Below are positions 3,636 to 18,713 of a stretch of 20,880 nt of DNA, piece by piece. The stretch comes from a virus (taxonomy: Duplodnaviria > Heunggongvirae > Uroviricota > Caudoviricetes): IMG/VR virus record IMGVR_UViG_3300029080_000072; one strand, written 5' to 3'. Within the stretch, counting starts at the first letter, position 1. Every line of letters begins with the position of its first letter. Both the position numbers and the translations under genes were made by a program. Below the pieces are notes generated by a model. The model saw nothing but the letters and a program-made list of their open reading frames with translations. It was not told the DNA's origin and did no database searches.

Positions 3636-4129
3636 TGCTGACCCCACAAACAGATTTCACGCTCAATCTCACGACGAGTCATGAGACCTTTCCATTGCTT
3701 ACCGCCAGCATATGTCCAGCGACGTAGCTGATCACATGCGCCTTTGATATCGCCCTGGTTTATTTTGCGAAGAAGCGTCGATGTTCTGAAATTGCCAGCG
3801 CCCACGTTGTAAACGAACGAGTAAAGAGCGCCGCGCGTTGTTTCCGGTATATCAACTTTTATGTACGGGTTAATTTGTCTGGCGACCGTGGCAAGGTCTT
3901 TATTCAGGAGGGCTTTGCATTCTGCTTTGGTATACGTTTTACCGAGCATGATGTCTTTTCCTGTATGCCCGTGACATACAGTCCATACACCAACAATATC
4001 TTTGTATGGTATGTAGCTGACACCTTCCAGACCATCGTTACCACTTGGGCCAGTGATTAACACTGATGCTATAGCAATTGCTCCGCCACCAATAGCAGCA
4101 GCAACGGCTTTTCGTAATGATGGAGGCAT
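3632..4129 (-). CDS. R: SAR endolysin, phage-21/DLP12 RrrD type (T4-lysozyme-like)
   Basis: [59 protein letters not shown]... has an N-terminal Gly/Ala-rich signal-anchor-release segment followed by a lysozyme-like body; matches remembered R21/RrrD. Confidence 0.9.
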
Positions 4130-4344
4130 TATTCACCTCTCGCAGCCTTGCGCTTATCTTCTTTAATCTTGAAATAAAGGTTTGTCAGGTACGTCAGCAG
4201 GCCAAATACCAGGCTACCCAGCACACCTATTGCTGCCCACTGTGAGGGCGTGACTTTATCGAGCAGCTGTAAAAACCAGTAACCGGCACTACCTGCTGAG
4301 GTGCCATAGGCGACACCCGTTGTTAACTTATCCATGGATTTCAT
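4129..4344 (-). CDS. S: Class II holin (pinholin, S21/EssD type) with dual-start motif MKSM
   Basis: [71 protein letters not shown]; ATGs at 4344 and 4335 (Met1/Met4); GAGGTGGGG Shine-Dalgarno upstream; the tracked ORF start at 4389 is an extension. Confidence 0.85.
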
Positions 4345-4389
4345 AACCCCACCTCGCAGACAAAGCGGGTGTAAATTGAGGGAATACAA

Positions 4390-4932
4390 CGTATCGCAAA
4401 AAAGCAGAAACGTAACAGACTCGGAGTCAGTGAATAACTCAGGTATTGAGTTATCAGCTAATATCGAGACTCAAAAAATGGAAAAACCAGCTCGACGGCG
4501 GGTTTAAGCTGTGTGACGAAGTAACCACTCTTAACAGCATAACCAATTTTTTACGTACGTAAACCACTGAATGATATTTATGAGAATGCTACCGAGTGTT
4601 CAAAACACCACCACAAATACATAAGAAAACCTCAACAAATAACCAATAAATAATTTCAGACGTTATTTTTAGTTGATTTAAATTAAACTGCCGAATTATA
4701 GAACCTCCATAAATAACAACCATTAATATAAATTAGCTAATAGGTTTATTTTTGTTCAAATAAGAGCCATAAATAGGTTTCGATAGAAAAAGTTCAGATA
4801 AAAATAGAGATCTACTTCACAAATTAAATGAGAAACTAAAACTTACATCTTGAAATAATCACATTGATTAGATGAATATTTATCGCGCAGTGACATCATT
4901 TTTTAATAATAGTTCAAAAAAAAGGGCTCACG
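4390..4932 (+). promoter_or_regulatory. AT-rich ~540-bp upstream region of the porin gene (promoter/regulatory, exact elements not resolved)
   Basis: Very AT-rich non-coding stretch directly upstream of the porin ATG; AAGGG precedes the start. Confidence 0.4.
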
Positions 4933-6015
4933 ATGAAAAAATTAACAGTGGCAATTTCTGCTGTAGCTGCATCAGTACTGATGGCGATGTCTGCTCAGGC
5001 AGCTGAAATTTATAATAAAGACAGTAACAAGCTGGATCTATATGGGAAAGTTAATGCCAAGCACTACTTCTCCTCTAATGATGCAGATGATGGTGATACT
5101 ACTTATGCCCGTCTTGGCTTCAAAGGTGAAACCCAAATCAACGATCAACTGACTGGTTTCGGTCAGTGGGAATATGAATTCAAAGGCAACCGCGCTGAAT
5201 CTCAAGGCTCCTCCAAAGACAAAACCCGTCTTGCATTTGCAGGCCTGAAATTCGGGGACTACGGCTCAATCGATTACGGCCGTAACTACGGTGTAGCATA
5301 TGACATCGGTGCGTGGACTGACGTTCTGCCAGAATTCGGTGGCGATACCTGGACCCAAACAGATGTGTTCATGACTGGTCGCACCACTGGTGTTGCAACT
5401 TATCGTAACAACGACTTCTTTGGTCTGGTTGATGGTCTGAACTTTGCTGCTCAGTATCAGGGTAAAAATGACCGCACTGACGTAACTGAAGCTAATGGTG
5501 ATGGTTTCGGTTTCTCCACTACTTATGAGTATGAAGGATTCGGTGTAGGTGCAACCTATGCTAAATCTGACCGCACTAATAATCAGGTTATCTACGGTAA
5601 CAACAGCCTGAATGCATCTGGTCAAAATGCTGAAGTATGGGCAGCTGGTCTGAAATATGATGCGAACAACATCTATCTGGCTACCACCTATTCTGAAACC
5701 CAGAACATGACTGTTTTTGGTAATAACCATATTGCCAACAAAGCACAAAACTTCGAAGTAGTTGCACAATATCAGTTCGACTTCGGTCTGCGTCCGTCCG
5801 TTGCTTACCTGCAATCTAAAGGAAAAGACTTGGGTGCGTGGGGTGATCAGGACCTGGTTGAATATATTGATGTAGGTGCAACCTATTACTTCAACAAAAA
5901 TATGTCCACTTTTGTTGATTACAAAATCAACCTGATTGATAAGAGCGATTTCACGAAAGCATCTGGCGTTGCTACCGATGATATCGTTGCTGTAGGTATG
6001 GTTTACCAGTTCTAA
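4933..6015 (+). CDS. nmpC: OmpC/OmpF-family general porin (phage-borne NmpC/Lc-like), apparently intact
   Basis: 360 aa with signal peptide [23 protein letters not shown], typical porin beta-strand pattern and C-terminal ...VGMVYQF; matches remembered NmpC/Lc. Confidence 0.9.
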
Positions 6016-8198: not shown

Positions 8199-8227
8199 GT
8201 CACCGGAGTTGTTCAGGCTCCGGTGAC
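8199..8227. other. Strong 10-bp-stem hairpin in the spacer between the NADAR gene and ybcN
   Basis: gtcaccggag ... ctccggtgac perfect inverted repeat with ~9-nt loop; no adjacent U-tract. Confidence 0.4.
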
Positions 8228-8337
8228 ATGATTATGGCTGGTTGATTATAGAAAATCAAAAACCTTTTATGGCAACAAAAAAACGCCGAGGGAGGTACGC
8301 CAGTTAATTTATGGAAGAAAATGCCCCAGATGGAACG

Positions 8338-8967
8338 CTAAAACAAGGATAAACTTTGCCCTGCTCCAGGCGTTGGCTTTACAAATGTTACATCTTTAAT
8401 TCTTTCGCCTAGGAGAAAAAATTTGTCCAAAGATAGCGATGGTATTGTTGCAAACCCATCAGCCCCCTTTTTCCTAGCAACCCCTCTCACGTCCATGAGA
8501 ATTCGCCCTAATACGTTCATACCATAATAGTTACCTTCTGGGTCTTTACTGGCACCCCAGAATTGGTCCTTCTCTGAGTGTTCCACGATGAAATGGTCGC
8601 CTGTACTGTCTAACAGCGCAAAGAACGTATCCCAGTTCTGGCATAATTTTACGCATACACACCACTTCATAATCGAAACTCGATTCTTATCCCATCCTGC
8701 GCGAGTTTTGGATTCAAACGATCTTGCGGTCTGCTTGGCTTCATAGGGGTTTCCTTGAGTAATGATGGCCTTTTGTATATCCGGATAGTCTGGATATCGG
8801 CATGCTTGGTAAAGGATTTCACTTGATTGAATAGGCAACCCATTGATTAACAATGGATATCCTTTAGCCATGTTGGAAAGCCCCCCCCATTTTTCGGTGG
8901 TTTTCCTGAAGGAAACTGTGTTCTGTAGCGGATATAATCTATAGCTCATACCACTCATTATACCCAT
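8338..8967 (-). CDS. NADAR (YbiA/DUF1768-like) domain protein, predicted N-glycosidic/ADP-ribosyl hydrolase
   Basis: Motif pattern GGLSNM ... IQSSEILYQACRY ... IVEHSEKDQFWGA ... G.N.LGRILMDVR parallels E. coli YbiA (FSNF ... TSEHYFQAQKF ... VEHTENDAYWGDG ... GKNRLGYLLMELR); start ambiguous among ATGs at 8967, 8958, 8949, all overlapping the upstream gene. Confidence 0.7.
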   Translation of the reverse strand: MGIMSGMSYRLYPLQNTVSFRKTTEKWGGLSNMAKGYPLLINGLPIQSSEILYQACRYPDYPDIQKAIITQGNPYEAKQTARSFESKTRAGWDKNRVSIMKWCVCVKLCQNWDTFFALLDSTGDHFIVEHSEKDQFWGASKDPEGNYYGMNVLGRILMDVRGVARKKGADGFATIPSLSLDKFFLLGERIKDVTFVKPTPGAGQSLSLF

Positions 8968-9970
8968 TCCGCTTCATTAGTGGATACCAGCAGTCCAATG
9001 CGGGAGCACCTGTTGGTTCATAATCTCCCCACCAAAAAGCCAGCGGCACATTATTCGGGCAATTTCGATAAGTAAATGTTGTTCCCCCAAAACCCAAACC
9101 GTCAAAAGTAGAAAAACCTAGAGGTTTGAGCACCTCACTAGGGGTTTTCCTGTGCAGCAAGATATTAAAGCCGACTTTAGTAAGGATAGATTCGAAACGA
9201 TCCCTTGAGGCTTCATTTCTAAAACTATCAGAAGAGGCATATCCATCTCTGAATACGCCTTTGTAAAGCTCACACTCCTCGAATTTCTCGGGAGTATCTA
9301 CACTATATTTCCTTGGCCAGAAAACACCTGATTGAGCAGAACGACTTTTTCGGTTTTCAACCTCACGCATACCACCATTCTTCACGTGTACAAAAATGTT
9401 TCTATCCTTAAAAATATATTCTAATCGTCTTTTTATATTATAGTCAGATAACGTATGAGATGAAAAAAAATATACATTGAATTTAATATCTCTTAAATTA
9501 AATTTTAAAACAAAATTACTTATCGATTTGATGGCCTTTTCTCCTGAAAACGACACATCATCAATATATACAAATGTATCAAATTTATTTACTTCATCTT
9601 GAGTTGATGATTCAGTAACGATGTTAAATTTGATCCCTACTGTTTCATAAAGAGATTTAAGCAATTCCTTCTGACTAGAACCTTTTTTTTGAATATCTAA
9701 AAAACCTGCATATCTGAAGAATTTCGCGTTCTTTTCACTTCTTGCAATGGCTTTTATTTTTCGTTGATATTGACTTTCGGATAGGTAACCTGCATTAAGT
9801 AGATAAAGCGTTTCATCTAAGATAAATCGTCTATCCTCCACTGCAAATTGCTTAATCCATTTGCTGACATGTTCAGAGTTCATACCTTCAGCCGGAGGAT
9901 ATTTATAATCGCTCAACTTTTCAGCAATTTTATTGATTACTTTTTCACCAGATAAAATATTCGAGGACAT
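8939..9970 (-). CDS. Unassigned 343-aa protein (AT-rich cargo gene); weak PRTase-like DD motif; function unknown
   Basis: Uninterrupted ORF with AGGA 8 nt upstream of the ATG; FVYIDDVSFSGEKA resembles a type-I phosphoribosyltransferase PRPP motif; Trp/Gly-rich C-terminus; no family I recognise. Confidence 0.7.
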   Translation of the reverse strand: MSSNILSGEKVINKIAEKLSDYKYPPAEGMNSEHVSKWIKQFAVEDRRFILDETLYLLNAGYLSESQYQRKIKAIARSEKNAKFFRYAGFLDIQKKGSSQKELLKSLYETVGIKFNIVTESSTQDEVNKFDTFVYIDDVSFSGEKAIKSISNFVLKFNLRDIKFNVYFFSSHTLSDYNIKRRLEYIFKDRNIFVHVKNGGMREVENRKSRSAQSGVFWPRKYSVDTPEKFEECELYKGVFRDGYASSDSFRNEASRDRFESILTKVGFNILLHRKTPSEVLKPLGFSTFDGLGFGGTTFTYRNCPNNVPLAFWWGDYEPTGAPALDCWYPLMKRNGYNEWYEL

Positions 9971-10181
9971 AAAAATTCCTTTTCACAACACAGAATCTAA
10001 AAAATAAGAATACTTTTATTTATTTCAAGTATAGACCGTATATTCAACTACTTTTTTTTATAGTAGGGAGATACCGATCACAATTTTTAGATATCTAATG
10101 TGATGGTTTAATAACCAGCAGTCTTACGTGTTAATTCACGTAAAAAAACTCATCAAACCTTCCTCTTTTCAGTTAATTCTT
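9971..10181 (-). promoter_or_regulatory. AT-rich upstream region of the cargo cassette with a TACGTG-N6-CACGTA palindrome (10125-10142)
   Basis: ~210 bp, very AT-rich, between the methyltransferase stop and the cassette start; the palindrome is followed by an A7 run. Confidence 0.35.
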
Positions 10182-10766
10182 TTAAGAATAAACATCAGTA
10201 ACTCGGGCCGGGCTTAATGCTACGGTTGGCGAATCACACTTGTTTCCCCATACGTCGAAACCGTGGGAGGATTTACGCGCAAAGAGCTCAATACGTGGAA
10301 GATTACCCAGCAACCGAACCAGCATTTCACGCACGCAGTCTGGTTTACGTGAGTGCTCATGTCGCGGCGAGGTGTAGTGCTGGATGATCGAGGCGTCCTG
10401 CTGTGGTGCCCGCTTACCCTTTACCGCGAAAAGACAATCTTCACGGTTCGCCCGGATCAGGTGTCCCATTCCCATCGCCGATTTGTCAGTTTGCTTCGGG
10501 TAGGTTTTATCCCAAGTGAAACCTTTCATTGTGATCAGGCGAAATCCCCAGGCATCGACGACTTTCATCGCCTCGAACGTTTGAGTTGGCAACCACCACA
10601 TCGCCAGCTGGCAGCTTTCTGCAACCCGCTCCCTTACTGGCAGCCAGCAGATATCCTGCACCGTCATAACCAAGTATTTATGCCCGGTGCCACGCTTACC
10701 AGAATTGCATTTATCCTCGTACGTCCAGGGCGGATCCGCTTAGATCAACGTGTATTTCTTGTTCAT
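10182..10766 (-). pseudogene. Dam-like N6-adenine DNA methyltransferase (DPPW motif) interrupted by an in-frame TAA at codon 9
   Basis: Minus strand from ATG 10766 reads MNKKYTLI-TAA-ADPPWTYEDKCNSGKRGTGHKYLVMTVQDICWLP...; the stop (10742-10740) sits where intact homologs, as I remember them, have Tyr in LIYADPPW. Confidence 0.75.
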
Positions 10767-10768
10767 GG

Positions 10769-12467: not shown

Positions 12468-13007
12468 TCATATTGCCCCCAGCATGGTGGTGACCATCGC
12501 CATCAATGGACCAGCCAGATCCGGGTCCACTCGAAACATCGACACAATGCCTTCACTCATCTCCTTCAGTTTCTGGTGGCGTGGTGCGTTGAGAATGACC
12601 GCCTGCTTTGCCTCACAGAGTTCCTTTTCCATTTCAGCCAGCCGAGCCATGAAGCTATCCTGCTCAACCAGGTGGCCGCGATATTCCAGCGGTAGTACCG
12701 CCAGAATTGCCGGGGTCAGTTCACGCACGTTATTTCGGTATTTTTCAGAATCGAATTTGTTATCGAGGAAGCGGAACAGCTTCTGGCGTGCACGGCTGAC
12801 ATCATCAGGGAAATCGATAGTGCCGCCGCCCTGCTCCCGATACTCATTCACAATGAGTGTGGCAACGACATCCTGATTATCTTCAGCCGACCAGGCGCGG
12901 ACGGCATCACGGATTTTTTCGTGGCCTGGCACCTGTTTTGTTTGAGAACGATTTATCACCGCAGTCGGGCTAAATCCGCTAGTCTGTTGGTATGTAAGTG
13001 GTTGCAT
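12468..13007 (-). CDS. cII-position protein, 179 aa, possibly YdaT-family
   Basis: Good Shine-Dalgarno (AAGGAG) and position between cro and O; not lambda CII-like; the LTPAILAVLPLEYR segment resembles what I recall of YdaT-type proteins (weak memory). Confidence 0.5.
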   Translation of the reverse strand: MQPLTYQQTSGFSPTAVINRSQTKQVPGHEKIRDAVRAWSAEDNQDVVATLIVNEYREQGGGTIDFPDDVSRARQKLFRFLDNKFDSEKYRNNVRELTPAILAVLPLEYRGHLVEQDSFMARLAEMEKELCEAKQAVILNAPRHQKLKEMSEGIVSMFRVDPDLAGPLMAMVTTMLGAI

Positions 13008-13307: not shown

Positions 13308-13411
13308 AACAACCTCCGTGGTTAATTTGAATCAAGATTAAAACTATGGTTGTTTTTAGTCAACAACCATTTTCGTTTGATGGAATAAAACCTTGGTTGT
13401 ACATTTGGACT
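13308..13411. promoter_or_regulatory. OR region: divergent promoters and operator palindrome ATGGTTGTT-N7-AACAACCAT (13346-13370)
   Basis: Perfect 9-bp inverted arms; further GGTTGT half-site at ~13395; the same AACAAC half-site recurs at OL. Confidence 0.6.
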
Positions 13412-14101
13412 ATGAAAACAACACTCTCAGAAAGACTTAAAGAAGCCAGATTAGCGCGAGGCCTTACACAAAAGGCGCTTGGGGATTTGGTCGGGGTTAG
13501 CCAAGCTGCTATTCAGAAAATCGAAACAGGGAAAGCTAACCAAACAACTAAAATCGTGGAGATCGCGAACGCTTTGGGTGTGCGCGCAGAATGGTTATCT
13601 TCTGGCGTTGGAAATATGTCAGACAGTACAGTGCAACCAATACAATCAACTGTCAGCCATTCCAAATACTTTAAGATTGACGTTCTTGATATAGAAGTGA
13701 GTGCCGGGCCGGGAGTCATCAACCGTGAATTTGTAGAAGTTCTACGCTCGGTTGAGTACTCGTTTGACGATGCTCGTCACATGTTCGATGGCAGGAAGGC
13801 GGAAAATATCCGCATCATTAACGTGCGTGGTGACAGCATGTCAGGAACGATCGAACCAGGTGATCTGCTGTTCGTTGATATCACGGTTAAATCTTTCGAC
13901 GGTGATGGTATCTATGCGTTTCTGTACGACGACACAGCCCATGTAAAGCGCCTGCAAATGATGAAAGATAAGCTACTGGTTATCTCTGATAACAAGAGCT
14001 ACTCACCGTGGGACCCGATCGAGAAAGACGAGATGAACCGGGTGTTCATTTTCGGGAAGGTTATTGGCAGTATGCCGCAGACGTATAGGAAACACGGATA
14101 A
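13412..14101 (+). CDS. cI: CI repressor (XRE-type HTH + LexA/S24-like autocleavage domain)
   Basis: MKTTLSERLKEARLARGLTQKALGDLVGVSQAAIQKIETGK... then a C-terminal S24-like region; the tracked ORF start at 13346 lies inside the operator, so it could alternatively be a leaderless start. Confidence 0.9.
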   Translation: MKTTLSERLKEARLARGLTQKALGDLVGVSQAAIQKIETGKANQTTKIVEIANALGVRAEWLSSGVGNMSDSTVQPIQSTVSHSKYFKIDVLDIEVSAGPGVINREFVEVLRSVEYSFDDARHMFDGRKAENIRIINVRGDSMSGTIEPGDLLFVDITVKSFDGDGIYAFLYDDTAHVKRLQMMKDKLLVISDNKSYSPWDPIEKDEMNRVFIFGKVIGSMPQTYRKHG

Positions 14102-14458: not shown

Positions 14459-14899
14459 ATGAAACACGGTTATTACGAAGCTCCAAACCTAACTGAAAAG
14501 CTTGAACAAGCGGCAAGATCATCATCTTTGCACACTGCAGCATTTTCTCAATCAGCTGGTATGTCTGGCGGTAATGTACCTATGCTACAATCAAGTGGTA
14601 GCGGTGGCTCTGGGAGTAATAATGTGCTTGAATCGAAAGTTGCAAAGCTTGAGTCTGATGTGTCCTATATCCGACGTGACGTTGATGAGCTTAAGACAGA
14701 TGTCAAATCTATCGACAGAAACATGATCGCTGTTCTGGAGCGACTCGATTCAATAAAAGATTCACTAGCCAAAAAACCCTCCATCGATGCTGTCGATAGA
14801 AAGATTTCAGACGCAAAGCTTGCGGTATTGCTTGGTGTTCCAGCAATCATCGCTGCAGGAACAGGTCTTTATAAGCTATCAATGTACTTTTTTCTTTAG
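14459..14899 (+). CDS. Coiled-coil protein with C-terminal transmembrane anchor (possibly XhlA-like), second gene of cI-linked cassette
   Basis: Heptad-like segment LESKVAKLESDVSYIRRDVDELKTDVKSIDRNMIAVLERLDSIKDSL and hydrophobic tail LAVLLGVPAIIAAGTGLYKLSMYFFL; starts 8 nt after the previous stop. Confidence 0.55.
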   Translation: MKHGYYEAPNLTEKLEQAARSSSLHTAAFSQSAGMSGGNVPMLQSSGSGGSGSNNVLESKVAKLESDVSYIRRDVDELKTDVKSIDRNMIAVLERLDSIKDSLAKKPSIDAVDRKISDAKLAVLLGVPAIIAAGTGLYKLSMYFFL

Positions 14900-17497: not shown

Positions 17498-17652
17498 CGC
17501 ATCCTCACGATAATATCCGGGTAGGCGCGATCACTTTCGTCTACTCCATTACAAAGCGAGGCTGGGTATTTCCCGGCCTTTCTGTTATCAGAAATCCACT
17601 GAAAGCACAGCGGCTGGCTGAGAAGATAAATAATAAACAGGAGGATATATGA
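17494..17652 (+). CDS. Unannotated 52-aa micro-ORF translationally coupled between exo and the DGQHR gene
   Basis: ATG overlaps the exo stop (ATGA at 17494-17497) and its TGA overlaps the DGQHR ATG (ATGA at 17649-17652); product [52 protein letters not shown]; below the ORF-track size cutoff. Confidence 0.4.
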
Positions 17653-18713
17653 GTCAGGTTGGTAATCATTCATTCGAATTTCCGGCATCGCAAGGTGTAC
17701 AGGGTGGTACTGTTACACTCTTCCTTACCATACCAGGAAGATCGCTGGCTCGTTTCCTCGCTTCAGATAATTACGGCCATACACTGGAACGCTCTCAGCG
17801 AGAAATTAATCCAAATCGAGTACGAAAATTTTTAAATTATCTCACTAACGCAGACTCAAGAAATGAGTCTTTTATCATTCCCCCTCTCGTAGGTAACTGT
17901 GATTCGAATATAGAATTTGTACCGTTTGGCAACACAAATGTTGGTATAGCCAGAATTCCCCTCGACGCCGAAATAAAACTTTTTGATGGCCAACATCGTG
18001 CAGCTGGCATTGAGATATTTTGCCGAAGTTCCCCATCAACGCTCATGGTTCCCATGATGCTTACAATGAATCTGCCGCTAAAAACCCGGCAGCAGTTCTT
18101 TTCGGACATAAATAACAACGTTTCTAAGCCATCAGCGACCATCAATATGGCGTATAACGGCCGGGATGATATTGCTCAGGGAATGATATCCTTCCTGACC
18201 CAACATACTGTATTTGCCGATATAACCGATTTTGAACACAACGTAGTGCCATTAAAAAGTAATATGTGGGTGAGTTTCAAGGCACTCACTGATGCAACGT
18301 CAAAGTTTGCTAGGAACGGCAATCAACAACTTGAAATGGGATATATAGAATCTGTCTGGGAGGCATGGATTACACTAACTCAGATTGACTCAATCCGACA
18401 TGGTGTACACCACGCTACGTACAAGCGCGATTATATTCAGTTCCATGGAGTAATGATTAACGCTTTCGGTTTTGCGGTTCAACAGATGATGGTTAATCAT
18501 TCCATCGCAGAAATAACTTCTATGATCGAAAAACTCTGTGCAACTACCAGCTCTGCAGAAAGAGAGGATTTTTTTCTGATGGATAACTGGGCGGGGATCT
18601 GCACGAAAGCCAGCCAGGAAAAACTATCGGTTATTGCCAATGTGGCAGCGCAGAAAGCAGCAGCAAACAGACTGATACAAGCTTTTACCAAAGGAAGTCT
18701 GGAAACAACTTAA
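17649..18713 (+). CDS. DGQHR-domain (DndB-like, ParB/Srx-fold) protein
   Basis: Contains the literal motif FDGQHRAAGIE preceded by a region resembling what I recall of DndB-like proteins; AGGAGG 5 nt upstream of the ATG. Confidence 0.7.
   Translation: MSQVGNHSFEFPASQGVQGGTVTLFLTIPGRSLARFLASDNYGHTLERSQREINPNRVRKFLNYLTNADSRNESFIIPPLVGNCDSNIEFVPFGNTNVGIARIPLDAEIKLFDGQHRAAGIEIFCRSSPSTLMVPMMLTMNLPLKTRQQFFSDINNNVSKPSATINMAYNGRDDIAQGMISFLTQHTVFADITDFEHNVVPLKSNMWVSFKALTDATSKFARNGNQQLEMGYIESVWEAWITLTQIDSIRHGVHHATYKRDYIQFHGVMINAFGFAVQQMMVNHSIAEITSMIEKLCATTSSAEREDFFLMDNWAGICTKASQEKLSVIANVAAQKAAANRLIQAFTKGSLETT

What the first reader, a model, noticed from the sequence alone, without database searches (positions are those of the whole stretch)
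8338..9970. AT-rich two-gene cargo cassette (unassigned 343-aa protein + NADAR hydrolase) in the nin-region hotspot: candidate undescribed defense, toxin-reversal or counter-defense module
Between the replication/methyltransferase block and ybcN-ninE-ybcO-rusA-Q there is a ~1.9-kb insert far more AT-rich than the flanking phage genes (by eye), with its own AT-rich upstream region. It holds two same-strand genes whose reading frames overlap by 11-29 nt, implying translational coupling. The downstream product has a clear NADAR/YbiA-like motif pattern; the upstream 343-aa product matches no family I recognise. NADAR enzymes are established as N-glycosidic/ADP-ribosyl hydrolases and, in DarT1-NADAR pairs, as the reversal partner of a DNA ADP-ribosyltransferase toxin encoded just upstream. 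The same gene order here (unknown enzyme first, NADAR second) suggests a modifier plus eraser pair. Alternatively it could be a counter-defense module erasing host ADP-ribosyl adducts or ADPR-derived signals. The nin region is a known site for accessory immunity genes.
Basis: partly seen in the sequence, partly recalled or inferred. Interest (0 to 1): 0.88.

Follow-up and report, generated by a model that had tools for sequence, protein, structure and literature searches.

The report
Known PRTase–NADAR anti-phage system DS-32
This two-gene prophage insert is DS-32, an anti-phage defence system already published and tested with exactly these two proteins (a phosphoribosyltransferase-like enzyme and a NADAR hydrolase); how it works is still unknown, and relatives in other bacteria have the NADAR fused to restriction-enzyme DNA-recognition subunits.

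Summary
The two overlapping minus-strand genes are real (343 aa, 9970-8939; 203-209 aa, 8949/8967-8338). They sit in an AT-rich insert between replication gene P/an MT-A70 pseudogene and ybcN-ninE-ybcO-rusA-Q of a DLP12-like prophage. They are not undescribed. Both proteins are 100% identical to DS-32A/DS-32B of DeWeirdt, Mahoney & Laub (DefensePredictor; Science 2026). Cloned with its native promoter, that pair cut plating of the T5-like phage Bas26 about 5,000-fold and RB69 about 40-fold. Both pass NCBIfam's DS32_1/DS32_2 cut-offs. The "unassigned" protein is a PRTase-CE protein: type I PRTase core, invariant DD in the PRPP loop, and the PNNxP signature of retron type III effectors. The partner is a YbiA-family NADAR with its conserved residue set intact. 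Found here: the pair is adjacent in 80/80 related loci from more than 10 phyla. In 24 of them the NADAR is fused to a type I R-M specificity subunit (hsdM-PRTase-NADAR::hsdS-hsdR) or to a DUF1156 methylase. Most likely mechanism (inferred): a PRPP-using effector restrained by its N-glycosidase partner, toxin-antitoxin-like and linked to DNA. Verdict: already known system with an open mechanism; moderate-to-low interest.

The parts
8939..9970 (-). DS-32A: 343-aa phosphoribosyltransferase-like (PRTase-CE) protein, the presumed effector
8338..8949 (-). DS-32B: 203-aa YbiA-family NADAR N-glycosidase (alternative in-frame ATGs at 8958 and 8967)
   Evidence: ORF. Contains the published DS-32B WP_032260665.1 at 100%. 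Pfam PF08719 5.7e-23. NCBIfam NF053876 257.4 bits, cut-off 240. AF2 pLDDT 93. Foldseek hits YbiA 2b3w 3.6e-8 and 8bau 4.4e-7.
8939..8949 (-). 11-nt overlap of the A stop with the B start (ATGAGCTATAG); 29 nt if B starts at 8967
   Evidence: Sequence. In 80/80 related loci the NADAR alignment starts within -22..+66 nt of the PRTase stop.
9533..9574 (-). PRPP-loop motif FVYIDDVSFSGEKA (residues 133-146); D137 and D138 invariant
   Evidence: Translation verified. D137/D138 are invariant and Y135, F141, G143 are >=90% conserved in 40 homologs. The equivalent DD/PRPP motif is essential in ShosT and the Retron-Eco11 effector.
9044..9100 (-). Signature GLGFGGTTFTYRNCPNNVP (residues 291-309), the 'G...PNNxP' motif shared with retron type III PRTase effectors
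   Evidence: Translation verified. G291, G293, F294, G295, R302, N303, P305, N306, P309 are invariant. The motif is described for retron PRTases in PMC12746101.
8575..8589 (-). NADAR last-strand motif IVEHS with E123, the glutamate that defines the YbiA subfamily
   Evidence: Translation verified. V122 and E123 are invariant across stand-alone partners, R-M-fused partners and E. coli YbiA. Subfamily rule from PMC11125620.
8806..8880 (-). NADAR N-terminal conserved motifs LSNM (8869-8880) and SEILYQ (8806-8823)
   Evidence: S25, N26, E44, Q48 are invariant, including in YbiA. Coordinates verified.
8395..8457 (-). Conserved C-terminal tail of DS-32B (GFATIPSLSLDKFFLLGERIK, residues 165-185), absent from YbiA; in fused relatives it precedes the linker to HsdS or DUF1156
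   Evidence: Alignments A2/A3: consensus 'PLxIPxFLLxGExI', F177 invariant or >=90%. Modelled as ordered, pLDDT >90 up to residue ~192.
9971..10181 (-). AT-rich leader (GC 0.275) with a sigma-70-like site (10028->10001) and the palindrome TTACGTG-N6-CACGTAA (10124-10143)
   Evidence: Promoter function is inferred from the published cloning 'with native promoter region', not shown by my scan.
8323..8336 (-). Weak terminator-like hairpin directly after the DS-32B stop
   Evidence: Consensus scan only.

Best explanation
The cassette is DS-32, a two-gene anti-phage defence system carried as cargo in the nin region of a DLP12-like lambdoid prophage. It has already been validated with exactly these two proteins. 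DS-32A is a phosphoribosyltransferase-like enzyme of the PRTase-CE clade, the same clade as retron type III effectors. DS-32B is a YbiA-family NADAR, an N-glycosidase for ribosyl-N linkages. Most likely mechanism: DS-32A is the harmful effector. When infection is sensed it uses PRPP to attach ribose-5-phosphate to a nitrogen acceptor. This drains PRPP and/or marks a nucleotide or a nucleic-acid base, and blocks phage replication, probably at the cost of the infected cell. DS-32B is made in step with A from the overlapping downstream gene. It is the cognate antidote or regulator: it hydrolyses the N-ribosyl-5'-phosphate bond that A makes, and may also bind A, so uninfected cells stay healthy. 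In about 30% of relatives the NADAR is fused to the DNA-recognition subunit of a type I restriction enzyme or to a DUF1156 DNA methylase. This indicates that the partner acts on or at DNA and that the module is wired into self/non-self DNA surveillance. SHOWN: identity with DS-32 and its defence phenotype (published), both folds, intact conserved motifs in both enzymes, obligate adjacency, and the R-M fusions. INFERRED: toxicity of A, PRPP use, the acceptor, reversal by B, and the trigger. The confidence figure covers the whole package. Identity as DS-32 alone is about 0.97; the writer/antidote mechanism alone is about 0.45-0.5.
Against: Nobody has shown that DS-32A is toxic, uses PRPP, or that DS-32B reverses it. 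The DS-32 paper reports only the phenotype and structure comparisons. The Retron-Eco11 effector alone was not toxic. A single-chain PRTase-CE-NADAR fusion (P0332) and the absolute co-occurrence fit a model in which both enzymes act together at least as well as an antagonistic pair. PRTase-CE homologs are not basic overall (median pI 6.2), which does not favour direct DNA binding by the transferase. The NADAR evolves more slowly than the PRTase (44% vs ~30% identity between E. coli and Planctomycetota). That is typical of an enzyme, but it does not say which reaction it catalyses. The E. coli version has no R-M partner fused, so lessons from the fused forms may not transfer.
Confidence: 0.6

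Rival explanations
1. Co-effector or futile-cycle model. PRTase and NADAR are not antagonists; together they form the weapon. The PRTase joins PRPP to a base-like acceptor and the NADAR immediately hydrolyses the product, regenerating the acceptor. The net reaction is catalytic PRPP hydrolysis (PRPP + H2O -> ribose-5-P + PPi), which starves phage nucleotide synthesis. Regulation would lie elsewhere.
For: Both enzymes keep all conserved motif residues in every lineage. They are never separated in 80/80 loci. One single-chain PRTase-CE-NADAR fusion exists (P0332). PRPP depletion is the only measured consequence of a related effector (Retron-Eco11). ShosT similarly couples its PRTase to a second hydrolytic domain that 'drives the reaction forward'.
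Against: All characterised NADAR partners in defence or TA systems are antitoxins. This model gives no reason for fusing the NADAR to HsdS or a DNA methylase. A constitutively expressed PRPP-hydrolysing pair would be costly, so an unknown off-switch is required. P0332 is a single cluster and could be a frameshift artefact of two overlapping genes. Orphan NADARs in phages or MGEs make more sense as antidotes.
Confidence: 0.15
2. PrrC-like guard model. The NADAR is mainly a tether and sensor rather than an eraser. It holds the PRTase inactive on a DNA-surveillance complex: the type I R-M enzyme in fused relatives, an unknown host or prophage partner in E. coli. It releases the PRTase when a phage protein such as an anti-restriction factor or replication protein disturbs that complex.
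For: The architecture hsdM-PRTase-NADAR::hsdS-hsdR, with the NADAR fusion as the only HsdS in the operon, is seen in 18 loci. The analogous SNF2/NOV_C-PRTase-NADAR::DUF1156-MTase operon is seen in 6 loci (5 with the SNF2/NOV_C gene in view). This mirrors the prr locus, where the anticodon nuclease PrrC sits inside a type I R-M operon, is silenced by it, and is activated by the T4 anti-restriction peptide Stp (my own knowledge of the PrrC/EcoprrI literature). DS-32B has a conserved, ordered C-terminal tail absent from YbiA that could be an interaction surface. DarG also binds DarT directly. The Retron-Eco11 effector is activated without leaving its complex.
Against: A pure tether would not need an intact NADAR active site, yet every hallmark residue is invariant in both fused and free forms. 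The E. coli cassette has no R-M component; the neighbouring MT-A70 gene is a pseudogene. No interaction data exist.
Confidence: 0.15
3. Counter-defence or housekeeping module. The prophage uses the NADAR (with the PRTase) to erase host ADP-ribosyl adducts or ADPR-derived immune signals, or to salvage nucleotides, for its own benefit.
For: Phage NADARs are proposed and partly shown to act as counter-defence enzymes. The cassette is prophage-borne. K-12 YbiA is a housekeeping-type NADAR and is the closest solved relative.
Against: The cloned cassette protects E. coli from phages. There is no DS-32A relative in 50,697 phage genomes. Most relatives are chromosomal, many inside R-M operons. NCBIfam separates the family from the riboflavin N-glycosidase model: TIGR02464 scores 70.4, below its 73.7 cut-off.
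Confidence: 0.03

Closest known systems
DS-32 (DeWeirdt, Mahoney & Laub, DefensePredictor; bioRxiv 2025, Science 2026, doi 10.1126/science.adv7924)
   Same: Identical: both proteins match at 100%, with the same gene order and overlap. The source was an ECOR-collection contig, NZ_QOXQ01000027.1 48629-50261.
   Different: Nothing at the protein level. Only the genomic copy differs: this window is a DLP12-like prophage, identical over 2 kb to 11 of the complete RefSeq E. coli genomes listed and >=99% identical to 19.
DarT1-NADAR (DarTG1) and YarT-YbiA toxin-antitoxin pairs
   Same: Two enzymes, one of them a NADAR hydrolase that acts as an enzymatic antitoxin, and an anti-phage role. In DarT1-NADAR the order is transferase first, NADAR second; in YarT-YbiA the ybiA-like gene is upstream of yarT. 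YarT's partner is, like DS-32B, of the YbiA subfamily with a last-strand Glu.
   Different: Those toxins are ADP-ribosyltransferases that use NAD+. DS-32A is a PRTase-fold protein with a PRPP loop and no similarity to DarT. DarT1-linked NADARs are of the BC4488 subfamily (Asp), whereas DS-32B has Glu.
Retron type III-A PRTase effectors (e.g. Retron-Eco11)
   Same: A PRTase-like effector with a PRPP motif plus the clade signature G...PNNxP. PADLOC PRTase_III-A is the only defence-catalogue hit for A (7.5e-11). HHblits in the DS-32 paper also points to Retron_III PRTase. Activation depletes PRPP and gives abortive infection.
   Different: There is no reverse transcriptase or ncRNA next to DS-32A. 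Retron effectors carry a wHTH domain and a C-terminal tail and are restrained by RT-msDNA rather than a NADAR.
ShosTA
   Same: A PRTase-domain toxin whose DD motif is needed for toxicity, an unknown acceptor, and a DNA-associated antidote.
   Different: ShosT has an extra N-terminal pyrophosphatase-type domain, and its antitoxin is DprA-like rather than an enzyme that could reverse the reaction. No ShosT/ShosA model was hit in PADLOC, and no ShosT structure appeared among the fold matches.
prr locus (PrrC anticodon nuclease embedded in the EcoprrI type I R-M operon)
   Same: This applies to the R-M-embedded relatives only. An abortive-infection effector gene is nested inside an hsdM/hsdS/hsdR operon and presumably controlled by the R-M complex.
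   Different: The effector chemistry differs (PRTase vs tRNA nuclease). Here the coupling is a covalent NADAR::HsdS fusion. The comparison rests on my knowledge of PrrC and was not tested. The E. coli DS-32 has no R-M genes.
[quoted passage not shown]
   Same: Closest solved structure to DS-32B (2b3w; phmmer 2e-11, Foldseek 3.6e-8). K-12 ybiA also sits beside a PRTase-like, DNA-binding protein, YbiB.
   Different: Only 27-29% identity. YbiA lacks the conserved C-terminal tail. YbiB is not a PRTase-CE protein; that it has a TrpD-like fold is my own knowledge. No defence role is known.

Membership tests
DS-32 anti-phage system | PRTase-like component scoring above the NCBIfam NF053875 (DS32_1) cut-off | tested here: met
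   312.7 bits, cut-off 250, full-length match 2-322/322.
DS-32 anti-phage system | NADAR component scoring above the NCBIfam NF053876 (DS32_2) cut-off | tested here: met
   257.4 bits, cut-off 240, match 1-181/181.
DS-32 anti-phage system | Sequence identity with the experimentally tested proteins DS-32A and DS-32B | tested here: met
   Exact string identity: 343/343 for A and 203/203 for B, against the sequences printed in the paper's supplement.
DS-32 anti-phage system | Adjacent, same-strand order PRTase then NADAR in one transcription unit | tested here: met
   11-nt overlap in the window. The same layout is found in 80/80 related loci.
DS-32 anti-phage system | Protection against phage when expressed | not testable with these tools
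   Published for the identical cassette: Bas26 -log10 EOP 3.70, RB69 1.60 (Table S7).
Type I phosphoribosyltransferase fold | Five-stranded Rossmann-like PRTase core | tested here: met
Type I phosphoribosyltransferase fold | PRPP-binding loop (hydrophobic run, two acidic residues, then S/T-G) | tested here: met
   FVYIDDVSFSGEKA. D137 and D138 are invariant and G143 is >=90% conserved in 40 homologs.
Type I phosphoribosyltransferase fold | PRPP-dependent transfer activity and identity of the acceptor | not testable with these tools
   No biochemical data exist for DS-32A. Related effectors bind or deplete PRPP.
NADAR superfamily, YbiA subfamily | NADAR domain profile and fold | tested here: met
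   PF08719 5.7e-23. Foldseek hits YbiA 2b3w and NADAR 8bau only.
NADAR superfamily, YbiA subfamily | Glutamate (not Asp or His) in the last beta-strand | tested here: met
   E123 in IVEHS aligns with YbiA VEHTE and is invariant in 30 sequences. The rule comes from PMC11125620.
NADAR superfamily, YbiA subfamily | N-glycosidic (ADP-)ribosyl hydrolase activity | not testable with these tools
   Only inferred, from the full set of conserved residues.
DarTG1 (DarT1-NADAR) | ADP-ribosyltransferase (DarT) toxin upstream of the NADAR | tested here: not met
   The upstream protein has a PRTase fold and no ART or DarT hit in Pfam, PADLOC or NCBIfam. The paper also finds no similarity to DarT.
DarTG1 (DarT1-NADAR) | NADAR of the BC4488 subfamily (Asp in the last strand) | tested here: not met
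   Glu at that position.
Retron type III-A | Reverse transcriptase and msr/msd ncRNA adjacent to the PRTase effector | tested here: not met
   The neighbours are an MT-A70 pseudogene and ybcN. No RT is among the ORFs or annotations. An Rfam scan for the ncRNA was not run.
ShosTA | Match to ShosT/ShosA profiles | tested here: not met
   PADLOC returned only PRTase_III-A for A and PDC-M42C for B at E<=1.
Toxin-antitoxin system (type IV-like, enzymatic antitoxin) | Toxicity of A alone and rescue by B | not testable with these tools
   Circumstantial only: gene order, overlap, orphan NADARs in MGEs.

The most novel reading that the evidence does not exclude
PRTase-CE enzymes write a so-far-unknown nucleic-acid mark: 5-phosphoribosylation of a base, for instance the exocyclic N2 of guanine, using PRPP instead of NAD+. 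The YbiA-type NADAR erases it. In the R-M-embedded relatives the NADAR::HsdS or NADAR::methylase fusion makes this a second, PRPP-fuelled arm of a restriction enzyme, either as a sequence-directed eraser or as a guard that fires when the R-M complex is attacked. E. coli DS-32 would be the minimal, free-standing version of that module.
Probability: 0.15. Interest if true: 0.85.

Novelty: already known. Interest (0 to 1): 0.33.

Why it matters
As a discovery the cassette adds nothing: DS-32 is published, tested and in NCBI's annotation models. What remains open is its mechanism. Three unrelated defence systems (retron III-A, ShosTA, DS-32) now use PRTase-like effectors whose true acceptor is unknown, and each has an antidote tied to DNA (RT-msDNA, a DprA-like protein, a NADAR fused to R-M subunits). 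The comparative result obtained here is that the pair is obligate across more than 10 phyla and that the NADAR is repeatedly fused to type I HsdS or a DUF1156 methylase. I found no description of this in the searchable literature. It gives a concrete, testable route to the acceptor (DNA versus the metabolite pool) and to the trigger (interference with R-M complexes). If PRPP-dependent base phosphoribosylation exists, it would be a new chemistry in phage-host conflict, parallel to DNA ADP-ribosylation.

Tried and rejected
1. DNA megablast of 8200-10200 against 50,697 phage genomes gave only a 62-nt flank match. tblastn with DS-32A gave no match. The cassette is therefore not known from isolated phages.
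3. DarTG, retron III-A and ShosTA membership were each considered and rejected on a defining feature (see the membership table).
4. Counter-defence reading: rejected.
5. Literature search for 'PRTase-CE' returned 0 papers. NADAR + phosphoribosyltransferase + restriction-modification returned only the DS-32 papers and irrelevant ones. Kaur et al. 2020 does not mention PRTase or NADAR. The origin of the Pfam name stays unknown to me.
6. The promoter scan was not above chance, so I do not claim a mapped promoter.
7. I first assumed the SIR2 gene annotated in the near-identical genome L001 was also in the window. BLAST showed the window differs there and lacks it.
It was redone with A3.
9. In my notes I at first treated 8bau as the DarT1-linked NADAR. 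It is the stand-alone Phytophthora NADAR.
10. pI as a proxy for DNA binding was weak and mixed: NADAR homologs are basic, PRTase homologs are not.
11. A taxonomy look-up for Bas26 failed. Its family was taken from the BASEL paper.
12. An A-B complex prediction was not possible with the tools.
Full report
OBSERVATION. The window carries two minus-strand ORFs at exactly the reported place. Gene A runs 9970..8939 (343 aa). Gene B runs 8967..8338 (209 aa from the first ATG; 203 aa from the RefSeq start at 8949). The frames overlap by 11 nt (annotated start) or 29 nt (first ATG). GC is 0.356 in gene A, 0.275 in the 211-bp leader and 0.433 in gene B. The flanks are 0.476 and 0.514. The AT-rich character is therefore marked for gene A and its leader and mild for gene B. 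A stretch 99.9-100% identical over 2 kb occurs in complete E. coli genomes. There the annotated order is replication protein P - MT-A70 methyltransferase (pseudogene) - PRTase-like - NADAR - ybcN - ninE - ybcO - rusA - ylcG - quuD - porin - lysis genes, i.e. a DLP12-like lambdoid prophage. The description is confirmed.

WHAT IT IS. Gene A is not unassignable. It matches Pfam PF24390 'PRTase-CE' over the full profile (E=5.9e-39) and NCBIfam NF053875 'DS32_1_antiphage' (312.7 bits, cut-off 250). Gene B matches PF08719 NADAR (5.7e-23) and NF053876 'DS32_2_antiphage' (257.4 bits, cut-off 240). 'DS-32' is one of the systems validated by DeWeirdt, Mahoney & Laub (DefensePredictor; bioRxiv 10.1101/2025.01.08.631726; Science 2026, PMC13092281). 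Their supplement gives DS-32A = WP_000097610.1 and DS-32B = WP_032260665.1 with full sequences. Both are identical, residue for residue, to the window's proteins. [quoted passage not shown] It gave -log10 EOP of 3.70 on Bas26 and 1.60 on RB69, and smaller plaques on SECphi18, T5 and Bas67 (Table S7). Bas26 is a T5-like Markadamsvirinae phage. The authors report no mechanism. They note that DS-32B resembles the NADAR antitoxin of DarTG, that DS-32A is unlike DarT, and they suggest toxin-antitoxin 'partner swapping'. No later paper on DS-32 is in the searchable library. The finding is thus a rediscovery of a known, validated defence system.

A scan of one genome per species found 305 relatives of DS-32A. 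The best 80 loci come from Gamma-, Beta- and Alphaproteobacteria, Chloroflexota, Planctomycetota, Acidobacteriota, Bacteroidota, Myxococcota, Patescibacteria, Spirochaetia, Campylobacterota and others. In 80 of 80, a DS-32B-type NADAR gene follows on the same strand. Its alignment starts within -22 to +66 nt of the PRTase stop. In 18 loci the NADAR ORF continues into a full type I R-M specificity subunit (Pfam Methylase_S). The operon then reads hsdM - PRTase - NADAR::hsdS - hsdR, and the fusion is the only hsdS present. In 6 loci the NADAR is fused to a DUF1156 DNA-methylase-like protein, and in 5 of these an SNF2-helicase/NOV_C gene lies directly upstream. These fused proteins score above NCBI's DS-32 cut-offs, higher than the E. 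coli pair does. On a PRTase tree the fused and free forms are interleaved, while the enterobacterial clade is entirely free-standing. The family is modest in size: 1,236 clusters at 50% identity, 631 of them below 1e-30. Rare members fuse PRTase-CE to LRR or FGE-sulfatase domains (sensor-effector layout), to an HRDC nucleic-acid-binding domain, or, in one cluster, directly to the NADAR. That last junction could be a frameshift artefact. More distant DS-32B-like NADARs (38-43% identity) occur without any PRTase, next to a phage-type topoisomerase and in an E2/JAB/ThiF-DUF2958 island. No isolated phage genome encodes a DS-32A relative. I found no paper that links this pair to R-M systems.

HOW IT MOST LIKELY WORKS. 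Shown: the phenotype (published), the folds, the intact conserved motifs of both enzymes, the obligate coupling and the DNA-recognition fusions. Inferred: DS-32A is the effector that consumes PRPP to phosphoribosylate a nitrogen acceptor, and DS-32B is the matching N-glycosidase that cancels the product and/or restrains A until infection. The chemistry fits. PRTases make N-ribosyl-5'-phosphate bonds. All tested NADARs remove ADP-ribose from guanine, and they serve as antitoxins for DarT1 and YarT. That YbiA-type NADARs hydrolyse ribosyl-5'-phosphate bound to an exocyclic amine is my own knowledge of the riboflavin-pathway substrates. The gene order (transferase first, NADAR second, overlapping) is that of DarT1-NADAR. 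The orphan NADARs in mobile elements resemble the orphan-antitoxin counter-defence described for DarTG1 (PMC11257639). Two independent fusions of the NADAR to DNA-specificity and methylase subunits point to DNA as the place of action. So does the fact that the antidotes of the two other PRTase-effector systems are also DNA-linked: RT-msDNA and DprA-like ShosA. Whether the acceptor is a DNA base, a nucleotide or a free base is unknown. I rate the writer/antidote model at about 0.45-0.5. The futile-cycle (co-effector) PRPP-hydrolase model gets 0.15 and a PrrC-like guard model 0.15. The guard model would have the NADAR serve mainly as a tether, which the invariant active site makes less likely. 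Counter-defence or housekeeping gets about 0.03. Against direct DNA modification, PRTase homologs are not basic (median pI 6.2), whereas NADAR homologs are (8.9).

HOTSPOT. A second allele occupies the same P-[pair]-ybcN site in another DLP12-like prophage. Its PRTase is 339 aa; its NADAR gene and the adjoining end of the PRTase gene are 78% identical at the DNA level to the window. The full cassette at >=99% identity is present in 19 of 5,426 complete E. coli genomes.

VERDICT. Novelty: already known. Interest is moderate-to-low for the finding itself. The residual value lies in the unsolved mechanism and the R-M-fusion lead.

Noticed in passing
loci L015, L020, L022, L024, L025, L028, L034, L037, L038, L052, L056, L059, L060, L063, L064, L076, L077, L079 (NADAR::HsdS); L029, L032, L042, L046, L055, L071 (NADAR::DUF1156-MTase): In 24 of 80 species-level relatives the DS-32B-type NADAR is the N-terminal domain of the only type I R-M specificity subunit (operon hsdM-PRTase-NADAR::hsdS-hsdR) or of a DUF1156 methylase (an SNF2/NOV_C helicase gene lies upstream in 5 of the 6). 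I found no description of this in the searchable literature.
   Followed up: partly
window 10182-10767 (-): The MT-A70 DNA methyltransferase gene directly upstream of the cassette has a stop after codon 8 (MNKKYTLI*ADPPW...). This cuts off the start before the DPPW catalytic motif. RefSeq also marks it a pseudogene. An MT-A70 remnant also lies next to the orphan PRTase in L002.
   Followed up: partly
L002 6001-9671 (Enterobacter mori): Tandem arrangement: a PRTase 76% identical to DS-32A has no NADAR directly after it. An MT-A70 fragment and a 141-aa ORF follow, then a second PRTase (52% identical) with a NADAR. This is an 'orphan' effector possibly covered in trans by the downstream NADAR.
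   Followed up: partly
window 14459-14899 (+): A 146-aa coiled-coil protein with a C-terminal membrane helix and no family match. It sits between the cI-like repressor gene (13346-14101) and the early-left genes, the 'rex' position. Related prophages carry a SIR2 gene (L001 16982-18583) or HipA-kinase+DUF3037 (L082 11208-12781) at that spot, so it is a second cargo hotspot.
   Followed up: partly
window 17649-18713 (+): A 354-aa DndB-like protein (Pfam PF14072, E=3e-46) downstream of the bet/exo recombination genes. It is a DNA-sulfur-modification-associated family without the other dnd genes nearby.
   Followed up: no
window 12468-13007 (-): YdaT_toxin-domain protein (PF06254, 2.6e-29) between the cro/cII-like HTH gene and the replication genes. 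This is common in this prophage type and was not examined.
   Followed up: no
window 4400-5000 and 4933-6015 (+): A strongly AT-rich stretch (GC about 0.30) precedes a 360-aa OmpC/NmpC-like porin gene between Q and the lysis genes. It is another moron-type insert.
   Followed up: no
window 10124-10143: Perfect palindrome TTACGTG-AATTAA-CACGTAA in the AT-rich leader about 155 nt upstream of the DS-32A start. It could be an operator or a remnant; the T-run precedes rather than follows the stem, so it does not look like a terminator for the gene strand.
   Followed up: no
L083-L085 (gene 4001-4597) and L086-L088 (gene 4001-4645): DS-32B-like NADARs (43% and 38% identical) without a PRTase. One lies in an island with Prok-E2/JAB/ThiF, DUF2958 and DUF6197 genes. 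The other lies directly after a phage-type DNA topoisomerase gene. They are candidate orphan antidotes against PRTase-CE systems.
   Followed up: partly
proteins P0332, P0256, P0347, P0341, P0284/P0344: Rare PRTase-CE architectures: a single-chain fusion to NADAR, a C-terminal HRDC domain, and N-terminal LRR, FGE-sulfatase or DnaJ-like regions. Each is known from one 50%-identity cluster only, and their genomic contexts were not checked.
   Followed up: no
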